Shown: positions 6,199-40,413 of the stretch, piece by piece
How the letters are laid out: the number at the start of each line of letters is the position of its first letter
How positions within the stretch are numbered: position 1 is the first letter of the stretch
Position numbers and translations under genes: made by a program
DNA from: Escherichia phage JLBYU60
DNA: 44,804 bases
Reading direction: 5' to 3' (one strand)
Sequence record: NC_073052.1
The notes under the pieces: generated by a model
What the model was told of the DNA's origin: nothing
Seen by the model: only the letters and a program-made list of their open reading frames with translations
Databases searched by the model: none

Positions 6199-6226
6199 TT
6201 TGTTTTCCTTCATATCTCTGTTGGTG

Positions 6227-6263
6227 TGCAACCAATATAATGCAACCAACATACGCAATGCAA
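6227..6263 (-). promoter_or_regulatory. Putative sigma70-like promoter with two TTGGTTGCA elements
   Basis: On minus strand: -35 TTGCAT (6263-6258), 17-bp spacer, -10 TTATAT (6240-6235); TATATTGGTTGCACACCAACA element identical to that upstream of 40414. Confidence 0.45.
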
Positions 6264-22314: not shown

Positions 22315-22346
22315 GTATTACACCGCCCAACCAGGATTGCAACCAA
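22315..22346 (-). promoter_or_regulatory. Putative promoter for the antisense lipoprotein gene
   Basis: On minus strand: ATTGGTTGCAA containing -35 TTGCAA (22342-22337), 16-bp spacer, -10 TAATAC (22320-22315). Confidence 0.4.
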
Positions 22347-35869: not shown

Positions 35870-36057
35870 TATTCCACCCTTGAAAATTGAGCAATGTAAT
35901 AATCGTGTTCAACATTGGCCCGCTTCGCGGCATTGTTCATGGTAGCCGCCAGTCCTCGAGCTTGCATCCAGCAGCAATTCCAGTTTTGATTCATAACGAT
36001 TTCTGGTTGCTCGTCGCCGGTAATACGGCAACGAAATAAAACAAAGAATATAGCCAT
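35869..36057 (-). CDS. Small hypothetical protein
   Basis: 62-aa ORF with ATG 36057 abutting the upstream gene stop; end overlaps exonuclease start by 1 nt; no motifs. Confidence 0.35.
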   Translation of the reverse strand: MAIFFVLFRCRITGDEQPEIVMNQNWNCCWMQARGLAATMNNAAKRANVEHDYYIAQFSRVE

Positions 36058-36309
36058 TTATTTTGTCTCCCAGCGGTCAATTGTTTTTGCTTCGGATGCA
36101 ACTGCGAAGCGAACATATTCCAGATTGGAATCAGCCCAAATATAAAAGTCTGGATTAATAAAGGTGGTGCGCTTAATTTGCGCGGGAGTATTGCGGCGTT
36201 TATCTATTACGGCAACGCGTGACTGAAAGTTGCCGATGCGTTCGAATAGCCAATAATAAGGGCGTTGGTCGCGTGAATCCACCGCCTCGATTAGCGTGAA
36301 GCGTGCCAT
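36058..36309 (-). CDS. Hypothetical protein
   Basis: 83 aa with RBS GAGGA; preceded by a terminator-like hairpin. Confidence 0.5.
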   Translation of the reverse strand: MARFTLIEAVDSRDQRPYYWLFERIGNFQSRVAVIDKRRNTPAQIKRTTFINPDFYIWADSNLEYVRFAVASEAKTIDRWETK

Positions 36310-36321
36310 TGTCTCGTCCTC

Positions 36322-36350
36322 TAAAAAGAGGCCCGCAGATTAGCAGGCCG
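36322..36350 (-). terminator. Terminator-like hairpin on minus strand
   Basis: Minus strand reads GGCCTGC-taatct-GCGGGCC (one mismatch) then TCTTTTT; downstream of stop at 36358. Confidence 0.45.
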
Positions 36351-36357
36351 GAATACA

Positions 36358-36873
36358 TTAATCTTCCAGTTCGAAATAGGTTTCGACGATTTCTTTTAGC
36401 TCTGTGTGGAAGTCTTCGACGTCGTCATCTTCCAGCTTGGCGATTGATTTGATCTCGAACGATTCCAGCAGGTCGTCGAATTCGTCGTTCGCATCGTCGT
36501 CGTCACCACCGGCAATAATCGCGGCATACTGTTTGATCTCGTCGCGCATCTCTGCCAGCGGATCGGCATCTTTCTTGCCTTTGCCTTTTGCCGGTGCTTT
36601 TTTAGACTTAGCCGGTTTTTCATCTTCGGCATCGTCGTCGTCATCTTCTACGACTTCTTTTTTGGCCTTACCCTTCGCCGGTGCTTTTTTAGCTTTAGCC
36701 GGTTTTTCGTCTTCGGCGTCATCGTCGCCATCTTCGACAACTTCTTTTTTGGCCTTAGACGGCTTCTTGTCTTCCTGCTTACCAACGGCAGCGCCAACGG
36801 TTTCATAATGCTTTGCAATGGTCTCCAGTGCTACTACGCCGCGAGTGATCAGGTTTACGATTTGCTCAAACAT
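36358..36873 (-). CDS. Hypothetical protein with tandem lysine-rich/acidic repeats
   Basis: 171 aa from ATG 36873 (MFEQIVNL) with RBS GGAGATA; central duplicated ~31-aa unit (KPAKAKKAPAKGKAKKEVVEDDDDDAEDE) and acidic C-terminus; the six-frame ORF extension to 37053 lacks a credible start. Confidence 0.55.
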   Translation of the reverse strand: MFEQIVNLITRGVVALETIAKHYETVGAAVGKQEDKKPSKAKKEVVEDGDDDAEDEKPAKAKKAPAKGKAKKEVVEDDDDDAEDEKPAKSKKAPAKGKGKKDADPLAEMRDEIKQYAAIIAGGDDDDANDEFDDLLESFEIKSIAKLEDDDVEDFHTELKEIVETYFELED

Positions 36874-37110
36874 GGTATATCTCCGATTGGTTAAGTTTAG
36901 GTGTCGGCAGTTAACTTCGTCGGTGGCCTTAACATATTGCCAGGTTACGCGTTCTCCCGTTCGGGTAGTGGACCTGGTTATATAATCACGGTTGGGAATC
37001 CTGACACTTCGATCCGGCCCCTGCGGTGCCCCTCTCCAGTTTGCGTCCTGCATCCTGTCGACGGAGTGAATGATAGATTGGTTGCAGGATGGGTGTCAAC
37101 AACTAATTTC

Positions 37111-37143
37111 AAAAAAAAGCGCCGAAGCAAAATGCGACGGCGC
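37111..37143 (-). terminator. Terminator-like hairpin on minus strand in large intergenic region
   Basis: Minus strand GCGCCG...CGGCGC stem (large loop) followed by TTTTTTTT. Confidence 0.4.
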
Positions 37144-37214
37144 TAACCAATAAGAGACAATGAGACGGAAAGTATTATTACACGCGTGCGCGCCCGTTTC
37201 AATATCCAAAGGAT

Positions 37215-37243
37215 TTGACACCCTGCGGTTTTAGGTGTAGTTT
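37215..37243 (+). promoter_or_regulatory. Putative sigma70-like promoter for HTH regulator gene
   Basis: -35 TTGACA (37215-37220), 17-bp spacer, -10 TAGTTT (37238-37243); followed by inverted repeat TTGGTcattaaCCAAC overlapping the RBS region. Confidence 0.4.
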
Positions 37244-37274
37244 CATTGGTCATTAACCAACAGGAGACTGAATT

Positions 37275-37604
37275 ATGAATATCAAAGAAGCAATTGAAGT
37301 GTTATCTAATGCTATCCGCGGCGAGGCGGGTAAATCCTGGTATTACACAAATGCGGTGGATACTCTGTTATTTGAAGTGTCCAGGTTATCGCGTGCTGAG
37401 AAGGAGCTTACCGCCAAACTGGAATTACTGAATGGAACGGCAGCAAGCAAGCTGCAAAAACACAATGAAGAAATGGAAGAATACAAAAAGCAGGTTATCC
37501 GTTTGCGCGCCGAGGGCAAATCTTGGGCGATGATTGCCGAGTTGACCGGAATTAATCAGAGCACAGTGCGCTCCTGGGTACGCAATAATAAAACTTCTAA
37601 GTAA
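37275..37604 (+). CDS. HTH DNA-binding protein (putative early transcriptional regulator)
   Basis: 109 aa with RBS AGGAGA; C-terminal HTH-like segment SWAMIAELTGINQSTVRSWVRNN; first + strand gene after a 400-bp divergent intergenic region with sigma70-like promoter. Confidence 0.6.
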   Translation: MNIKEAIEVLSNAIRGEAGKSWYYTNAVDTLLFEVSRLSRAEKELTAKLELLNGTAASKLQKHNEEMEEYKKQVIRLRAEGKSWAMIAELTGINQSTVRSWVRNNKTSK

Positions 37605-37614
37605 GGCCACGGCA

Positions 37615-39879
37615 ATGAGCTTGATTAAATTCGCTGTAACAAAACCCGCTAAAAAAGGCGAAAAAGCCAGGGCGGAAAACTTCCAGATGACGACCGATGA
37701 GTTTTTCGAATTTATCAAAGATGCGAAAGAAATCTCCTCGGTGCATATCAACAAGACGGAAGATAAAGCCGAGTATGCGCGCCGCAAGCGTAAGGCCGAT
37801 GGCATCGTGGCGTATACCAGTGACGGATTGCGTCGTAAGACCAGTGCGGTGGACCGTTCGATCCTGTTCTTTGATATTGACCGCACCGACACCCGCACCC
37901 TGCGCCGCTGCCGCAAGGCGTTCATCGACGCGGGTCTGGAACACGTATTTCACACCACAACCGGCGACCGCCACCCGCTGAAAGGAGGCACGCGTTGCGC
38001 TCGTTTCCTGGTGCTCACCGATAAGCCTGTACCTGCTGAAGACCTGGGCCGCGTCCAGTATGCACTATTACACCAACTGGGCCTGTCAGATGTGGACTTC
38101 GATGATTGCACGAAAGACACAAACCGCCTTATGTACCTGCCTCACCAGCAATCGGTTGTTAAGTGTCACTACGGCAAACGTGCCCGCGTCCGTCGTCTGC
38201 TGCGCCTGGCGGATAAGCTGGGAGTGGAAAAAGAGGAAGTACGCCGCGAACTAACCCAGGGCGATGACGGCGTGGCGGACGGCATTCTGGATTGGTGCTT
38301 CCAGGCCGGATTCGAACCGCTGTCGTCCGGTCGTGGTTATGAAGTGCCATGCCCGAACGAACATCTGCATAGTGGCGAAGGGTCCACCGCTATCATGGTT
38401 AAGGATGGCGAGATCCGTTTCAAGTGTATGCACACCGGCAACGAGTGCTGTTCCGAACTGAACAGACACCAGCACCTGGCGCTACGTCTTATCGGGATCC
38501 CGGACCACCTGAACGTCGAACCGCACAACATGTCACGTAAGCAAATCGCCGCCATCCTTCCGGGACTGGACGACGAGGAGGTCGAATCGTGCTATGAACA
38601 TATCGTTGATGCGGTCGGTGACGGCGACGAGTACGGCGGATGTACGGACGCAGACCTGGACAACGAGCCGGTTGCACTGTTCAGTAAGCACGACCCGATC
38701 ATAGAAGGTCTGATTAACTTCAAATCGACCTGGTATATGGCTGGCGAGTCGAACATCGGTAAATCGTTCTACGTGCTGGGCCAAATGGGTGCGGTTGCCG
38801 CGGGGATTCCGTTCGGCGGCGCGAAGGTCGTCCAGTCCCATTGCTTCTATTTCGACGCGGAAGGTGGCGAAGCCTCTAACCAGCGCAAAGAAGCATTGCA
38901 GATTAAATATGAGCACGACCTGGACAAGCTGCACATTATCGATCTGCAATCACGCGGCTGGGATATCACCAGCAAATCCGGCTTGCGTGAAGTTATCAGC
39001 TTCATCAACCGCACCGCTAACGGCGAACCGGTTGGCCTGGTGGCGTTCGACTCACTCAACCAGACTGTTGCGTTGCGGTCCGCGGATGCTAAACCGTTCG
39101 ACGAGAACAACGCCAGCGATATGGGTGAAGTGGTCAAAGCGCTGAAGGCCATCGCGGAAAATACAGGTGGCAGTGCGGGCGTCATCCACCACCCGGCGAA
39201 GGGTGCAAACGGCAGCAGAACCCCCCGCGGGTCCGGCGCGCTGCATGGCGCTGTCGATTCTGCGTTCTTCCTGGAACAGCCGGACGACAACCAGCCAGGC
39301 CAATTGAACCTGTATCACGAAAAGGCACGTAACGGCATCAAGCAAGCGCCGCGTGGCTTCGTCCTGCTCAAGTGCAAGGTGAAGGTGGATCTCCGCAAGT
39401 CAGAAGCGTTCGAAGCCCACCAGTCCACCAGCACCGGGCCGGACTTCGGCGATGTGGTCGCCGGTTGGGACGTCAAGCCGATCGCATCAACGCCACGCGA
39501 CGAGACTCTTTACCTCGTACCGGTCGCCCTGGCACCGTTCGCCATTGAGCAGGCAAAGGCCGCTGGCAAGGCCGCAGTTAAGGAAGAGAACGCCGCAGGA
39601 CCGCGCAACGAAAAAGAGAAAGTGCTTTATGCAGCGCTGGAAAAACTGATGGAAGATAACCCGGACCATACCGGATTCAGCAAATCGGCAATTGTCCGCC
39701 AGGCTGGGCTTGCGAAAGGTGGCACATCGACGAAGGCAATCGACGATATGGTCGAGCGCGGCGTACTCGGTTTTTACACAGATCCGCACACCGGGGCCAT
39801 CTATGGGTCGTCGAATATCGTCATCAAAACGAATATACCCATCACGCTTTCGGCGACCGATGATGATTTAAAAGATTAA
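37615..39879 (+). CDS. Primase-helicase (replication initiation protein with RecA-like AAA_25-type ATPase domain)
   Basis: 754 aa; N-terminal region with LFFDIDRTD acidic motif and Cys/His zinc-binding segment CPNEHLHSGEG...FKCMHTGNEC; central Walker A GESNIGKS and Walker B-like LVAFDSLNQ. Confidence 0.7.
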   Translation: MSLIKFAVTKPAKKGEKARAENFQMTTDEFFEFIKDAKEISSVHINKTEDKAEYARRKRKADGIVAYTSDGLRRKTSAVDRSILFFDIDRTDTRTLRRCRKAFIDAGLEHVFHTTTGDRHPLKGGTRCARFLVLTDKPVPAEDLGRVQYALLHQLGLSDVDFDDCTKDTNRLMYLPHQQSVVKCHYGKRARVRRLLRLADKLGVEKEEVRRELTQGDDGVADGILDWCFQAGFEPLSSGRGYEVPCPNEHLHSGEGSTAIMVKDGEIRFKCMHTGNECCSELNRHQHLALRLIGIPDHLNVEPHNMSRKQIAAILPGLDDEEVESCYEHIVDAVGDGDEYGGCTDADLDNEPVALFSKHDPIIEGLINFKSTWYMAGESNIGKSFYVLGQMGAVAAGIPFGGAKVVQSHCFYFDAEGGEASNQRKEALQIKYEHDLDKLHIIDLQSRGWDITSKSGLREVISFINRTANGEPVGLVAFDSLNQTVALRSADAKPFDENNASDMGEVVKALKAIAENTGGSAGVIHHPAKGANGSRTPRGSGALHGAVDSAFFLEQPDDNQPGQLNLYHEKARNGIKQAPRGFVLLKCKVKVDLRKSEAFEAHQSTSTGPDFGDVVAGWDVKPIASTPRDETLYLVPVALAPFAIEQAKAAGKAAVKEENAAGPRNEKEKVLYAALEKLMEDNPDHTGFSKSAIVRQAGLAKGGTSTKAIDDMVERGVLGFYTDPHTGAIYGSSNIVIKTNIPITLSATDDDLKD

Positions 39880-39954
39880 ATTTTGCGCGCATTGGTTGCC
39901 GATATGGGAATTCCCATATCGCTAAAAGGTTAAATTTTGCGCGCATTGGTTGCC
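39876..39954. repeat. 25-bp perfect direct repeats flanking a 20-bp perfect palindrome
   Basis: TTAAATTTTGCGCGCATTGGTTGCC at 39876-39900 and 39930-39954; palindrome GATATGGGAATTCCCATATC at 39901-39920; first repeat overlaps the primase-helicase stop codon. Confidence 0.85.
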
Positions 39955-40015
39955 ATTTTGAGTGTTTTTATCAGGTCGTATTGGTTGCCGTGTAGTGTGA
40001 ATATAGTGAATAGTT

Positions 40016-40201
40016 ATGCAGTTTTACTGCATAAACCAAACGGGACAGAAAGCGGGACAAACAAGGGGCGGGACAAAGCGGGACAGCACCCCCGTCCCGC
40101 CCCGGATGGCGCGGCCTGGAGAGGAGCGGGACAGCGGGACAGCACCCCAGTCTTTCAGACTAGACGGGGGTCAGCGGCCCCCCTCGTCTGAGACTGAATA
40201 A
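40016..40201. repeat. Dispersed direct repeat, copy B (CGGGACA iterons plus long imperfect hairpin)
   Basis: Same orientation and length as copy A, 28,061 bp downstream; central ~45 bp diverged; located in the non-coding hub after the primase-helicase gene. Confidence 0.8.
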
Positions 40202-40350
40202 AATCCGAGGATTGCAAAATACACGGCAGCATGATGCGAAGGGCGGTCGTCGATGAACCAGGCAACCAATGCGGGTTGCATTATGCTGAGTGAAAAATGC
40301 AGTTTGCAGTCACAGCAGATAGCGATCAACTTTTTCATGCGCGTGATTAA

Positions 40351-40393
40351 TATTGGTTGCACCCTGCCTGGCGCCCTGCTATATTGGTTGCAC
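40351..40393 (+). promoter_or_regulatory. Putative sigma70-like promoter with duplicated TATTGGTTGCAC elements
   Basis: -35 TTGCAC (40357-40362), 17-bp spacer, -10 TATATT (40380-40385) preceded by TG-like extension; second TTGGTTGCACACCAA copy spans the predicted start site; gene starts at 40414. Confidence 0.5.
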
Positions 40394-40413
40394 ACCAACA
40401 AGAGGACTGAACG

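What the first reader, a model, noticed from the sequence alone, without database searches (positions are those of the whole stretch)
36874..37274. 400-bp divergent intergenic region with minus-strand terminator hairpin and promoters: possible small RNA or long regulated leader
Between the divergent genes starting at 36873 (minus) and 37275 (plus) lies 400 bp without a credible ORF. It contains a minus-strand GC stem plus T8 terminator (37111-37143), a TTGACA-containing promoter-like sequence just downstream of it on the minus strand, a TTGGTTGCA element, and a plus-strand TTGACA-17-TAGTTT promoter. A terminator with no upstream gene on its strand suggests a short antisense or regulatory RNA, or an attenuator separating early and middle transcription.
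Basis: inference. Interest (0 to 1): 0.45.

Follow-up and report, generated by a model that had tools for sequence, protein, structure and literature searches.

The report
Conserved folded RNA leader in coliphages
The 400-bp gap is the early control region of an HK578-like E. coli phage.

Summary
The window is a Dhillonvirus.

The gap 36874-37274 holds three sigma-70-type promoters. Their hexamers are invariant or nearly so in 19 related genomes, while the sequence between them drifts.

On the minus strand there are two tandem units:
- **Ps unit.** Ps (37202-37174) is followed by a ~55-nt, 99%-conserved transcript and an intrinsic terminator (37144-37111) whose stem covaries. This is a candidate small RNA, or else a terminated leader.
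- **PL unit.** PL (37099-37070) drives the leftward operon. The first ~160 nt of its mRNA (37062-36903) form an eight-helix RNA with invariant junctions.

- It recurs in Dhillonvirus, Tempevirinae, Jilinvirus, Sortsnevirus and related phages.
- It always follows a -10 box by 7-10 nt and usually ends 27-32 nt before the start codon of unrelated genes.
- On a hand-built alignment, 94.6% of cells pair and 23 of 40 pairs change on both sides.
- A covariance model finds held-out members at 133-135 bits.
- It matches no Rfam family and is absent from E. coli genomes and plasmids.
- About a third of Dhillonviruses lack it cleanly.

Its function is unknown. A cis-acting leader that binds a host factor or ligand is the most likely reading.

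The parts
37215..37243 (+). P+ promoter, TTGACA(37215-20)-17-TAGTTT(37238-43). It serves the HTH gene (37275) and the primase-helicase gene (37615).
   Evidence: Read directly from the sequence. The -35 is invariant and the -10 is 83% invariant in 19 genomes, against 24% for its spacer. HK578's GenBank record annotates a promoter here. The -10 is weak (3 of 6), so the scan did not pick it up.
37246..37260 (.). Palindrome TTGGT-CATTA-ACCAA over the predicted P+ start site. It looks like an operator.
   Evidence: inverted repeat I1 and direct repeat D3. The same TTGGT-N5-ACCAA arrangement occurs at about 6215-6236 and 40380-40395. That a protein binds it is an inference.
37174..37202 (-). Ps promoter, TTGAAA-17-(TG)t-AATAAT, with an extended -10.
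   Evidence: scores it 10 of 12 with a TG. Both hexamers are 100% invariant in 19 genomes. HK578's record annotates a promoter here.
37111..37167 (-). Candidate ~55-57-nt small RNA, or a terminated leader. It has a single-stranded 5' part, CGUCUCAUUGUCUCUUAUUGGUUA, followed by the terminator.
   Evidence: The start site is inferred as 7 nt after the -10. The body 37165-37145 is 90% invariant with pairwise identity 0.99. No reading frame is conserved. The 15-nt stretch GUCUCUUAUUGGUUA is complementary to the ribosome-binding regions of both flanking genes.
37111..37144 (-). Intrinsic terminator: stem 37143-37138 / 37124-37119, inner GCA/UGC pairs, and U8 at 37118-37111.
   Evidence: One search gives -16.2 kcal/mol and z = -2.6. 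The stem shows compensatory changes in L006, and L018 carries a different hairpin plus T12.
37070..37099 (-). PL promoter, TTGACA-18-TATCAT, for the leftward early operon. The GCAACCAAT motif (37077-37086 on the plus strand) sits in its spacer.
   Evidence: scores it 11 of 12, the best match in 17 kb. It is conserved in Dhillonviruses with and without the RNA element. HK578's record annotates a promoter here.
36903..37062 (-). Structured leader RNA, a new family. Helix coordinates: P1 37062-37055 / 36910-36903. P2 hairpin 37052-37042 with a GGA loop. P5 37032-37028 / 36927-36922. P4 37021-36994. P3a 36984-80 / 36937-33. P3b 36977-73 / 36944-40. P3c 36965-56. The invariant core is 37037-36986.
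   Evidence: The core is 85-92% identical in unrelated phages. On alignment A2, 94.6% of cells pair, 23 of 40 pairs change on both sides, and slid controls give 28-41% pairing and 2-7 such pairs. RNAalifold recovers P1, P2, P4, P5, P3b and P3c. The covariance model scores 164 bits at window 36899-37067(-) and 133-135 bits on held-out L286 and L289.
36871..36902 (-). A/C-rich linker, the TTAACCAAT motif (36894-36886), SD GGAG (36884-36881) and ATG (36873-36871) of the first leftward gene, a 171-aa acidic repeat protein.
   Evidence: The distance from the end of P1 to the start codon is 27-32 nt in 12 of 16 lineages.

Best explanation
The gap is the early control region of a Dhillonvirus, transcribed by host RNA polymerase from three promoters.

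**Rightward.** P+ serves a 109-aa HTH protein and the primase-helicase. A TTGGT-N5-ACCAA palindrome lies over its start site.

**Leftward, unit 1.** Ps starts a ~55-nt RNA that ends at a strong intrinsic terminator. This is most simply a free-standing small RNA. Its single-stranded 5' part can pair with the ribosome-binding regions of both flanking first genes.

**Leftward, unit 2.** PL starts the mRNA of the leftward early operon. Its first ~160 nt fold, from about +2, into a closed multi-helix RNA.
- P1 closes the fold.
- P2 is a hairpin with an invariant A-R-GGA-U loop.
- P5 encloses a three-way junction with P4 and the long arm P3.
- The junction strands are invariant.

This RNA travels with its own -10 box as a portable promoter-plus-leader cassette. 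It usually sits 27-32 nt before the start codon of whichever gene follows.

I infer that it acts in cis on the transcript that carries it, setting the stability or translation of the first ORF. It would do this by binding a host factor or a small ligand through the invariant junctions and the GGA loop. The basal 5' hairpin (P1) protects the 5' end.

**Shown:** the promoter and terminator anatomy and its conservation, the fold, the distribution, and the cassette geometry.

**Inferred:** that the transcripts exist, that the RNA acts in cis, and what it binds.
For: **Identity and layout.**

**Promoters.** The two minus-strand promoters are the best two sigma-70 matches in 17 kb. Their hexamers are invariant while the P+ spacer and the linker stretches vary.

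**Terminator.** It is stable and covaries.

**Structured RNA.**
- The core is 85-92% identical in Tempevirinae, Jilinvirus, Sortsnevirus, KA2-1, Lumpael and MQ-4 phages. There it lies in ~230-bp gaps, in the same sense as the flanking genes.
- 94.6% of cells pair, against 28-41% when partners are slid. 23 of 40 pairs change on both sides, against 2-7. The covariation score is 0.48, against 0.06 or less.
- RNAalifold recovers the same helices independently.
- Lineages not used to derive the model add new compensatory changes in P1, P2, P3b and P4. They score 133-135 bits.
- Many G.U pairs form on this strand only. That fits the sense transcript.

**Cassette geometry.** The -10 box ends 7-10 nt before P1 in about 14 of 16 lineages. 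P1 ends 27-32 nt before the start codon in 12 of 16. The downstream ORFs are unrelated.

**Element-minus phages.** Dhillonviruses that lack the element keep a small 5' hairpin at the same place. L006, for example, has GUCG-AAA-CGAC.

**Not coding.**
Against: - No transcript, 5'-end or 3'-end data were available for any of these phages.
- The single-sequence folding energy of the element is no better than shuffles: z = +0.64 and z = +1.12 with flanks.
- The structural alignment was fitted by hand. The sequences fall into only about six lineages, so the covariation events are few, though consistent.
- No expression platform was found: no alternative terminator, and no consistent pairing with the SD.
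- About a third of Dhillonviruses do without the element. Whatever it does is therefore dispensable.
- The small RNA's duplexes with the two ribosome-binding regions are -18.9 and -18.8 kcal/mol. They beat shuffles only at p of about 0.01-0.03 and are not exceptional genome-wide. Pairing with the plus gene's SD is lost in roughly half of the genomes.
Confidence: 0.6

Rival explanations
1. The 160-nt RNA is not a cis regulator. It is a stable, trans-acting accessory RNA: a promoter-plus-RNA 'moron' that is cut from, or simply rides on, the 5' end of the mRNA. It would sequester or mimic a host component, such as CsrA, another RNA-binding protein, a nuclease or a defence sensor.
For: It is dispensable, patchily distributed and exchanged between unrelated virulent phages. 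It sits among small accessory early genes in T1-like, Jilinvirus and Sortsnevirus phages. It has no phage-encoded neighbour in common, so any partner must be host-encoded. The P2 loop A-R-GGA-U on a covarying stem matches the CsrA-type GGA hairpin, as I recall that consensus.
Against: No terminator or recognisable processing site follows it. The tight 27-32-nt spacing to the next start codon would not be needed by a free RNA. The second CAGGAU is structural, because it becomes CAGAAU with a compensating change in L286.
Confidence: 0.25
2. The 160-nt RNA is a put-like element, as in phage HK022. The nascent RNA would bind the polymerase that made it and make it resistant to downstream terminators.
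For: It is strictly promoter-proximal in every lineage. The leftward operon has a terminator straight after its first gene, at 36349-36330, and further ones downstream.
Against: Dhillonviruses that lack the element keep the same terminator after the first gene. The architecture, about eight helices and 160 nt, is unlike the two-hairpin ~70-nt put RNAs as I recall them; this resemblance was not tested.
Confidence: 0.08
3. Ps plus its terminator is not a small-RNA gene. It is an antitermination-controlled leader, like lambda pR'-tR' with its 6S RNA, or a nut/boxA-type site. The short RNA would be the default product, and a phage factor, perhaps the 109-aa HTH protein, would let polymerase read on into the leftward operon as an early-to-middle switch.
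For: A constitutive-looking promoter followed by a short terminated transcript lies directly upstream of an operon that contains internal terminators. The transcribed GUCUCUUA resembles boxA (CGCUCUUA, from memory). A TAACCAAT site lies at +17 to +24, and the GCAACCAAT motif recurs at other control regions.
Against: A strong independent promoter, PL, follows the terminator, so read-through is not needed to express the operon. No Q-like or N-like protein was identified; Pfam finds only a generic HTH. The 21-nt body is more conserved than such a signal would seem to require.
Confidence: 0.2
4. The hairpin plus T8 is only an insulator that stops stray leftward transcription from entering the PL unit. 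Ps is a fortuitous or weak promoter, so there is no functional small RNA.
For: The count of promoter-like matches is not above chance. The small RNA's target complementarity is modest.
Against: The Ps hexamers, the TG and the 17-nt spacing are invariant in 19 genomes, while the 8 nt after the -10 and the 13 nt before the -35 vary. The 21-nt body has 0.99 pairwise identity.
Confidence: 0.15
5. The conserved 160-bp block works as DNA, either as a replication origin or single-strand initiation signal, or it encodes a protein.
For: It lies near primase or helicase genes in Dhillonvirus, Jilinvirus, KA2-1 and PHB17. Some GenBank records annotate ORFs across it.
Against: - Many G.U pairs would be A.C mismatches on the other strand.
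- The element always has the sense orientation behind a promoter.
- The iteron-rich region that looks like an origin is elsewhere, at 39880-40413.
- Substitutions are compensatory in stems rather than at codon third positions. Type-B copies have an in-frame stop after 10 codons. Element-minus phages start the protein at the 36873 ATG.
Confidence: 0.04

Closest known systems
Riboswitch-type and other structured cis-regulatory 5' leaders, including those carried by phages (preQ1, c-di-GMP and similar)
   Same: It has a closing P1 helix, multi-way junctions with invariant unpaired nucleotides, covarying stems, and a position in the 5' UTR just before a ribosome-binding site.
   Different: It matches no Rfam 15 family. 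No expression platform was found. The downstream genes are unrelated, so no ligand can be guessed. It is tied to the promoter at a fixed distance, which riboswitches do not require.
HK022 put RNA (cis-acting antitermination RNA)
   Same: It is a phage-encoded, promoter-proximal nascent RNA at the start of an early operon that contains terminators.
   Different: It is much larger and differently built. The downstream terminator is kept in phages that lack the element. The resemblance is by position only and rests on memory of the put literature.
CsrA-bound 5' leaders (for example flhDC, where CsrA at the 5' end blocks RNase E) and CsrB-type GGA hairpins
   Same: The P2 hairpin presents A-R-GGA-U in its loop 12-20 nt from the 5' end in every lineage, although the stem sequence changes completely.
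   Different: Only one GGA hairpin is conserved, and the second CAGGAU is a base-paired strand. The rest of the fold has no counterpart in CsrA targets. Binding was not tested.
Lambda oop RNA and lambda 6S (pR'-tR') RNA
   Same: The Ps unit is a short RNA of about 55 nt with its own promoter and an intrinsic terminator, in the control region next to the replication genes.
   Different: It overlaps no gene in antisense, unlike oop. A separate strong promoter follows the terminator, unlike pR'-tR'. No Q-like protein was identified.
Candidate structured RNAs of viruses catalogued by Fremin, Bhatt and Kyrpides 2023 (PMC10690425)
   Same: That screen predicted 10,006 unnamed phage RNA motifs, many upstream of genes. 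This element may be among them.
   Different: I could not check this, because no supplementary files are held. The paper's text discusses the GP20 and GP32 leaders, not this motif.

Membership tests
Any Rfam 15 family | A covariance-model match at or near the family's gathering score | tested here: not met
   For window 36000-38000 at E<=10, the only hits were two chance-level ones: DUF2693-FD at 20.3 bits against a threshold of 44.5, on the wrong strand, and ncS54 at 17.9 against 43, which is just the terminator. The whole window at gathering thresholds gave 0 hits. Four loci from other lineages at E<=1 gave 0 hits.
tRNA / tmRNA | An ARAGORN-detectable cloverleaf | tested here: not met
   No genes were found in the window.
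Intrinsic (Rho-independent) terminator | A G+C-rich stem-loop directly followed by a U tract on the transcribed strand | tested here: met
   A 6-7-bp GC stem with an inner 3-bp stem, followed by U8; -16.2 kcal/mol, z = -2.6.
Intrinsic (Rho-independent) terminator | The hairpin is kept in relatives despite sequence change | tested here: met
   L006 has UCCCCG/CGGGGA. L018 has an unrelated hairpin plus T12 at the same place.
Trans-acting small RNA (Hfq-type architecture) | Its own promoter, a single-stranded conserved seed, and a terminator hairpin with a U tail | tested here: met
   The features are predicted and conserved, not observed as RNA.
Trans-acting small RNA (Hfq-type architecture) | Target complementarity beyond chance that is conserved | tested here: inconclusive
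   Duplexes of -18.9 and -18.8 kcal/mol with both flanking ribosome-binding regions give shuffle p of 0.025 and 0.008, which is ordinary genome-wide. Pairing with the minus gene is kept in all genomes. Pairing with the plus gene's SD is lost in roughly half.
Trans-acting small RNA (Hfq-type architecture) | A discrete transcript is detected | not testable with these tools
   No transcriptome of a Dhillonvirus was found.
Riboswitch | A conserved aptamer with covarying helices and invariant junctions in a 5' UTR | tested here: met
Riboswitch | An expression platform: an alternative terminator or SD sequestration | tested here: not met
   No terminator follows the element. The linker to the SD is A/C-rich and unpaired. 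No consistent anti-SD pairing was seen by inspection. The inner part of P1 can alternatively extend P2 in most lineages, which may or may not be a switch.
Riboswitch | A consistent association with genes of one pathway, and ligand binding | tested here: not met
   The downstream ORFs are unrelated small proteins. Ligand binding cannot be tested here.
HK022 put-type antitermination RNA | Promoter-proximal, with its presence linked to read-through of downstream terminators | tested here: inconclusive
   It is promoter-proximal. The terminator after the first gene is identical in phages with and without the element.
Protein-coding gene / N-terminal extension of the 36873 gene | A reading frame conserved across relatives | tested here: not met
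   frame-breaking indels, stop codons in other lineages, and element-minus phages that begin at MFEQIV.

The most novel reading that the evidence does not exclude
The 160-nt RNA is a new class of ligand- or signal-sensing aptamer, either a riboswitch in the broad sense or a new self-cleaving ribozyme. Virulent coliphages would carry it as a plug-in promoter-leader cassette that tunes the first early gene to the state of the infected cell, such as a metabolite, an alarmone or a defence-derived nucleotide signal.
Probability: 0.2. Interest if true: 0.85.

Novelty: new member of a known kind. Interest (0 to 1): 0.62.

Why it matters
Complex RNA folds with invariant junctions almost always do something specific, such as binding a ligand, binding a protein or catalysing a reaction. 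Few are known from virulent coliphages. This one occurs in phages that grow on E. coli K-12, including BASEL-collection Dhillonviruses such as Bas84, along with jat, welsh, swan01 and sortkaff. Nature has already made clean element-minus alleles, so function can be tested directly by swapping alleles, by reporter fusions and by structure probing. The cassette logic (promoter, fold, fixed linker, any gene) is also of interest as a natural 5'-UTR insulator or regulator part. The ~55-nt Ps RNA and the GCAACCAAT motif add testable pieces to the early regulation of a phage genus whose transcription has not been studied.

Tried and rejected
- **Rfam.** Searches of the region, the whole window and four other lineages found nothing.
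- **tRNA scan.** Nothing found.
- **Thermodynamic signal.** There is none for the leader: z = +1.12 and +0.64.
- **Coding potential of the small ORFs and the 231-aa extension.** Rejected.
- **Host or plasmid origin.** No match in 5,426 E. coli genomes or in PLSDB.
- **Genome and metagenome scans with a 16-base pattern.** These returned mostly chance hits. Only 8 were real, all of known types, and one was a mis-binned MAG contig.
- **Looser structural patterns in IMG/VR.** These added only L286 and Lumpael.
- **Link between the element and the downstream terminator.** None found.
- **Second GGA as a CsrA site.** Rejected, because it covaries as a base pair.
- **Transposon-like target duplication.** The GTCGAC repeat is simply the palindromic P1 of one lineage and is absent in the others.
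- **Replication origin in this gap.** Unlikely, because the iteron-rich region is at 39880-40413.
- **Literature.** No transcript map or description of this RNA was found.
Full report
**What the window is.** Megablast of 36300-37700 finds 174 phage records, nearly all Dhillonvirus: HK578-, SSL-2009a- and slur05-like virulent E. coli siphophages at 87-97% identity. The finding's gap lies between two divergent units.
- Leftward is an operon starting at ATG 36873. It encodes an acidic repeat protein, then small ORFs, a PD-(D/E)XK exonuclease and a Gp2.5-like annealing protein.
- Rightward is a 109-aa gene at 37275, followed by the primase-helicase.
- Pfam sees only HTH_23, Sigma70_r4_2 and HTH_28 in the 109-aa protein. 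The GenBank names 'gamma', 'transposase' and 'resolvase' are therefore unsupported.

**Checking the observation.**
- The hairpin plus U8 (37144-37111, minus strand) folds at -16.2 kcal/mol with z = -2.6.
- The number of promoter-like matches is not above chance: 3 against 2.4 expected.
- However, the two minus-strand sites are the two best matches in 17 kb.
- In an alignment of 19 Dhillonvirus gaps, the Ps -35 and -10 and the P+ -35 are invariant. The P+ -10 is 83% invariant. The PL hexamers are 83% and 67% invariant. The P+ spacer, the stretch between the two -35 boxes and the 8 nt after the Ps -10 are only 24-38% invariant; the Ps spacer is itself 82% invariant.
- HK578's depositors annotated promoters at the same three places.
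- The terminator stem shows compensatory changes. In the divergent L018 it is replaced by an unrelated hairpin plus T12.
- The small ORFs in the gap are broken by 1-nt indels and by changes in T-run length between genomes.

**Unit 1: Ps to the terminator.**
- A start about 7 nt after the -10 box gives a 55-57-nt RNA, 37167-37111. It has 23 unpaired nucleotides followed by the terminator.
- Its body is 90% invariant, with pairwise identity 0.99.
- GUCUCUUAUUGGUUA is complementary to UAACCAAYNRGAGA in the ribosome-binding regions of both flanking first genes, with 14 of 15 positions paired in each.
- The duplex energies are -18.9 and -18.8 kcal/mol. They beat shuffled seeds only at p of about 0.025 and 0.008, and they are not exceptional among all 50-nt windows of the genome.
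- Pairing with the plus gene's SD is lost in roughly half of the genomes.
- A small RNA is the simplest reading. A lambda 6S-like or boxA-like terminated leader, or a mere insulator, remain open.

**Unit 2: the structured leader, the main result.** A distant blastn of the gap found that the sub-segment 36986-37037, extending in some hits to 36915-37051, is 85-92% identical in phages of other groups.
- These are Tempevirinae (swan01, tunus, slyngel, PHB17, Motto), Jilinvirus (Arya, PT1), Sortsnevirus (sortkaff, IME279), KA2-1, Lumpael, Alux-21 and Serratia MQ-4. In nearly every record the stretch is unannotated.
- In every case it lies in a ~230-bp gap, in the same sense as the flanking genes.
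- Aligning the copies shows a 52-nt invariant core flanked by segments whose sequences differ but stay complementary.

*The fold.* I built a structural alignment by hand and padded it with N so that MAFFT would keep the register (A2: 31 distinct sequences, 177 columns). I scored eight helices on it:
- P1, the closing helix
- P2, a hairpin with a GGA loop
- P5, GGRGC paired with GCY-A-CC
- P4, in lower and upper parts
- P3a, P3b and P3c

| Measure | Proposed structure | Partners slid 1-3 columns |
|---|---|---|
| Cells paired | 94.6% | 28-41% |
| Pairs changed on both sides | 23 of 40 | 2-7 |
| Covariation score | 0.48 | 0.06 or less |

None of 500 shuffles reached the observed values.

*Further support.*
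- RNAalifold on the same alignment recovers P1, P2, P5, P4, P3b and P3c. It also adds two short invariant helices.
- Two lineages found afterwards add fresh compensatory changes. L286 has P1 GGCAG/CUGCC, P2 AGCUAUA-AGGA-UAUAGCU, and C-G changed to U-A in P4. Lumpael has G.A changed to G.U in P4 and P3b CAUAAC/GUUAUG.
- A covariance model built from A2 scores these two at 133 and 135 bits, and the window copy at 164 bits (36899-37067, minus strand). It finds one copy per genome and none in element-minus Dhillonviruses.
- The many G.U pairs form only on this strand. That fits the sense transcript and argues against a DNA cruciform or the antisense strand.

*Caveats.* The alignment is fitted to the model. 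The lineages number only about six. Single-sequence folding energy is unremarkable, with z = +0.64.

**Cassette geometry.**
- In about 14 of 16 lineages a -10-like hexamer ends 7-10 nt before P1, so the fold begins within a few nucleotides of the 5' end.
- In 12 of 16 lineages P1 ends 27-32 nt before the start codon of the next ORF. The linker is A/C-rich and contains the SD.
- The ORFs themselves are unrelated. They include an acidic protein, a lipoprotein-like peptide, a zinc-ribbon peptide and others.
- A terminator from the preceding unit often sits just upstream.

The unit that moves is therefore promoter plus fold plus linker.

**Presence and absence within Dhillonvirus.** The element is a clean presence/absence polymorphism.
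- 128 of 191 records cover the whole gap. Others align only from 37054 onward.
- Element-minus genomes keep PL, and at the same place they keep a small 5' hairpin. L006 has GUCG-AAA-CGAC. L012 and L017 have a short GGGC...GCCC hairpin inside GUC...GAC.

The large fold therefore looks like an elaboration of a basal 5'-terminal stem-loop.

**What the structured RNA is not.**
- It is in no Rfam family and is not a tRNA.
- It is absent from 5,426 complete E. coli genomes and from PLSDB plasmids.
- It is not coding.
- The terminator after the first leftward gene (36349-36330) is the same in phages with and without the element. This gives no support to a put-like antitermination role.
- Of the two CAGGAU motifs, the one in the P2 loop is invariant on a stem that changes completely. 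The other is a paired strand that covaries. At most one CsrA-type site exists.
- The gap is unlikely to be the origin. The repeat-rich region at 39880-40413, just after the primase-helicase gene, has GCGGGACA iterons, a 32-nt direct repeat, a 22-bp perfect palindrome and six GCAACCAAT copies.

**The TTGGTTGCA element.**
- AACCAAT occurs 18 times in the window against 5.1 expected, and 0 of 100 shuffles reach that number.
- In 13 copies it is preceded by GC.
- The copies sit in intergenic spots. Many lie directly 5' of a -10-like hexamer, as in AACCAATATAAT at 6230. Others lie about 5 nt 5' of an SD, at 22341, 36892 and 37254.
- Some form TTGGT-N5-ACCAA palindromes, one of which lies over the P+ start site.
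- All three TAACCAAY 8-mers in the genome lie within this gap.

This looks like the binding site of a phage regulator, possibly the adjacent HTH protein. I did not pursue it further.

**Most likely mechanism.** The shown facts fit best with a cis-acting 5' leader: a fixed distance to the promoter, a fixed distance to the next start codon, no terminator after the fold, and no shared protein neighbour. The leader would modulate the stability or translation of the first ORF by binding a host-encoded factor or a small ligand.
- A trans-acting accessory RNA is the main rival, at about 0.25.
- A true small-molecule riboswitch or a ribozyme is the most novel reading not excluded, at about 0.2.
- For Ps and its terminator I favour a small RNA at about 0.45. 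Against it stand an antitermination-controlled leader at about 0.2 and a plain insulator at about 0.15.

None of this can be settled without transcript mapping and probing. No such data were found in the literature. The 2023 catalogue of 10,006 candidate phage RNAs (PMC10690425) may contain the motif, but I could not check it.

**Verdict.** The real content is richer than proposed: a well-conserved three-promoter control region, a candidate ~55-nt RNA, and a new, strongly supported structured-RNA family in experimentally tractable coliphages.

Noticed in passing
window 39880-40413: The 534-bp gap after the primase-helicase gene is packed with repeats. It has a 32-nt direct repeat twice (39869, 39923) and CGyATTGGTTGCC three times plus an inverted copy at 40261-73. 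It also has ATATTGGTTGCAC twice, GCGGGACA(G) about six times between 40035 and 40141, and a perfect 22-bp palindrome at 39900-39921. It is probably the replication origin or a second control region.
   Followed up: partly
window 6230, 22341, 25286, 26935, 26952, 29909, 37083, 39897, 39951, 39986, 40264, 40358, 40389, 40919: The motif (T/G)GCAACCAAT is strongly over-represented. AACCAAT occurs 18 times against 5.1 expected, and 0 of 100 shuffles reach that. It is usually intergenic, often directly 5' of a -10-like hexamer or of an SD, and sometimes forms a TTGGT-N5-ACCAA palindrome. It is a candidate site for a phage regulator, perhaps the 109-aa HTH protein.
   Followed up: partly
window 36330-36349 (minus strand): The terminator hairpin after the first leftward gene keeps its stem. 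Its loop occurs in two mirror orientations among Dhillonviruses, GCTAATCTGC and GCAGATTAGC.
   Followed up: no
window 37275-37604: The 109-aa gene is variously named 'DNA recombination nuclease inhibitor gamma', 'transposase' or 'resolvase' in GenBank. Pfam supports only a C-terminal HTH (HTH_23, Sigma70_r4_2, HTH_28), and the PDB search gives nothing significant. HK578 carries a different gene at this position.
   Followed up: partly
window 36358-37053 (minus strand): The first leftward gene encodes a very acidic protein with KKEVVEDDDDDAEDEKPAK...KKAPAKGK repeats, and the repeat number varies between phages. It has no Pfam match. Some records extend it to the ATG at 37053 through the RNA element, giving the 231-aa ORF (for example Bas84_0050). 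Element-minus phages show this extension to be an annotation artefact.
   Followed up: partly
L100 (genome contigs QFQS01000013.1, 42.8 kb, labelled as a Cereibacter sphaeroides MAG): This contig carries a sortkaff-type copy of the RNA element and has the size of a phage genome. It is probably a Sortsnevirus-like phage contig that was mis-binned into a MAG.
   Followed up: no
window 37055-37057 with 36908-36910, or with 37037-37039: In most lineages the inner 2-3 nt of P1's 5' strand can pair either with P1's 3' strand or with the 3' side of P2, extending P2 to 6-7 bp. Both pairings change compensatorily between lineages: CAG/CUG, GUG/CAC or GUG/UAC, and GC/GC. This could be a conformational switch or simply junction breathing.
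   Followed up: partly
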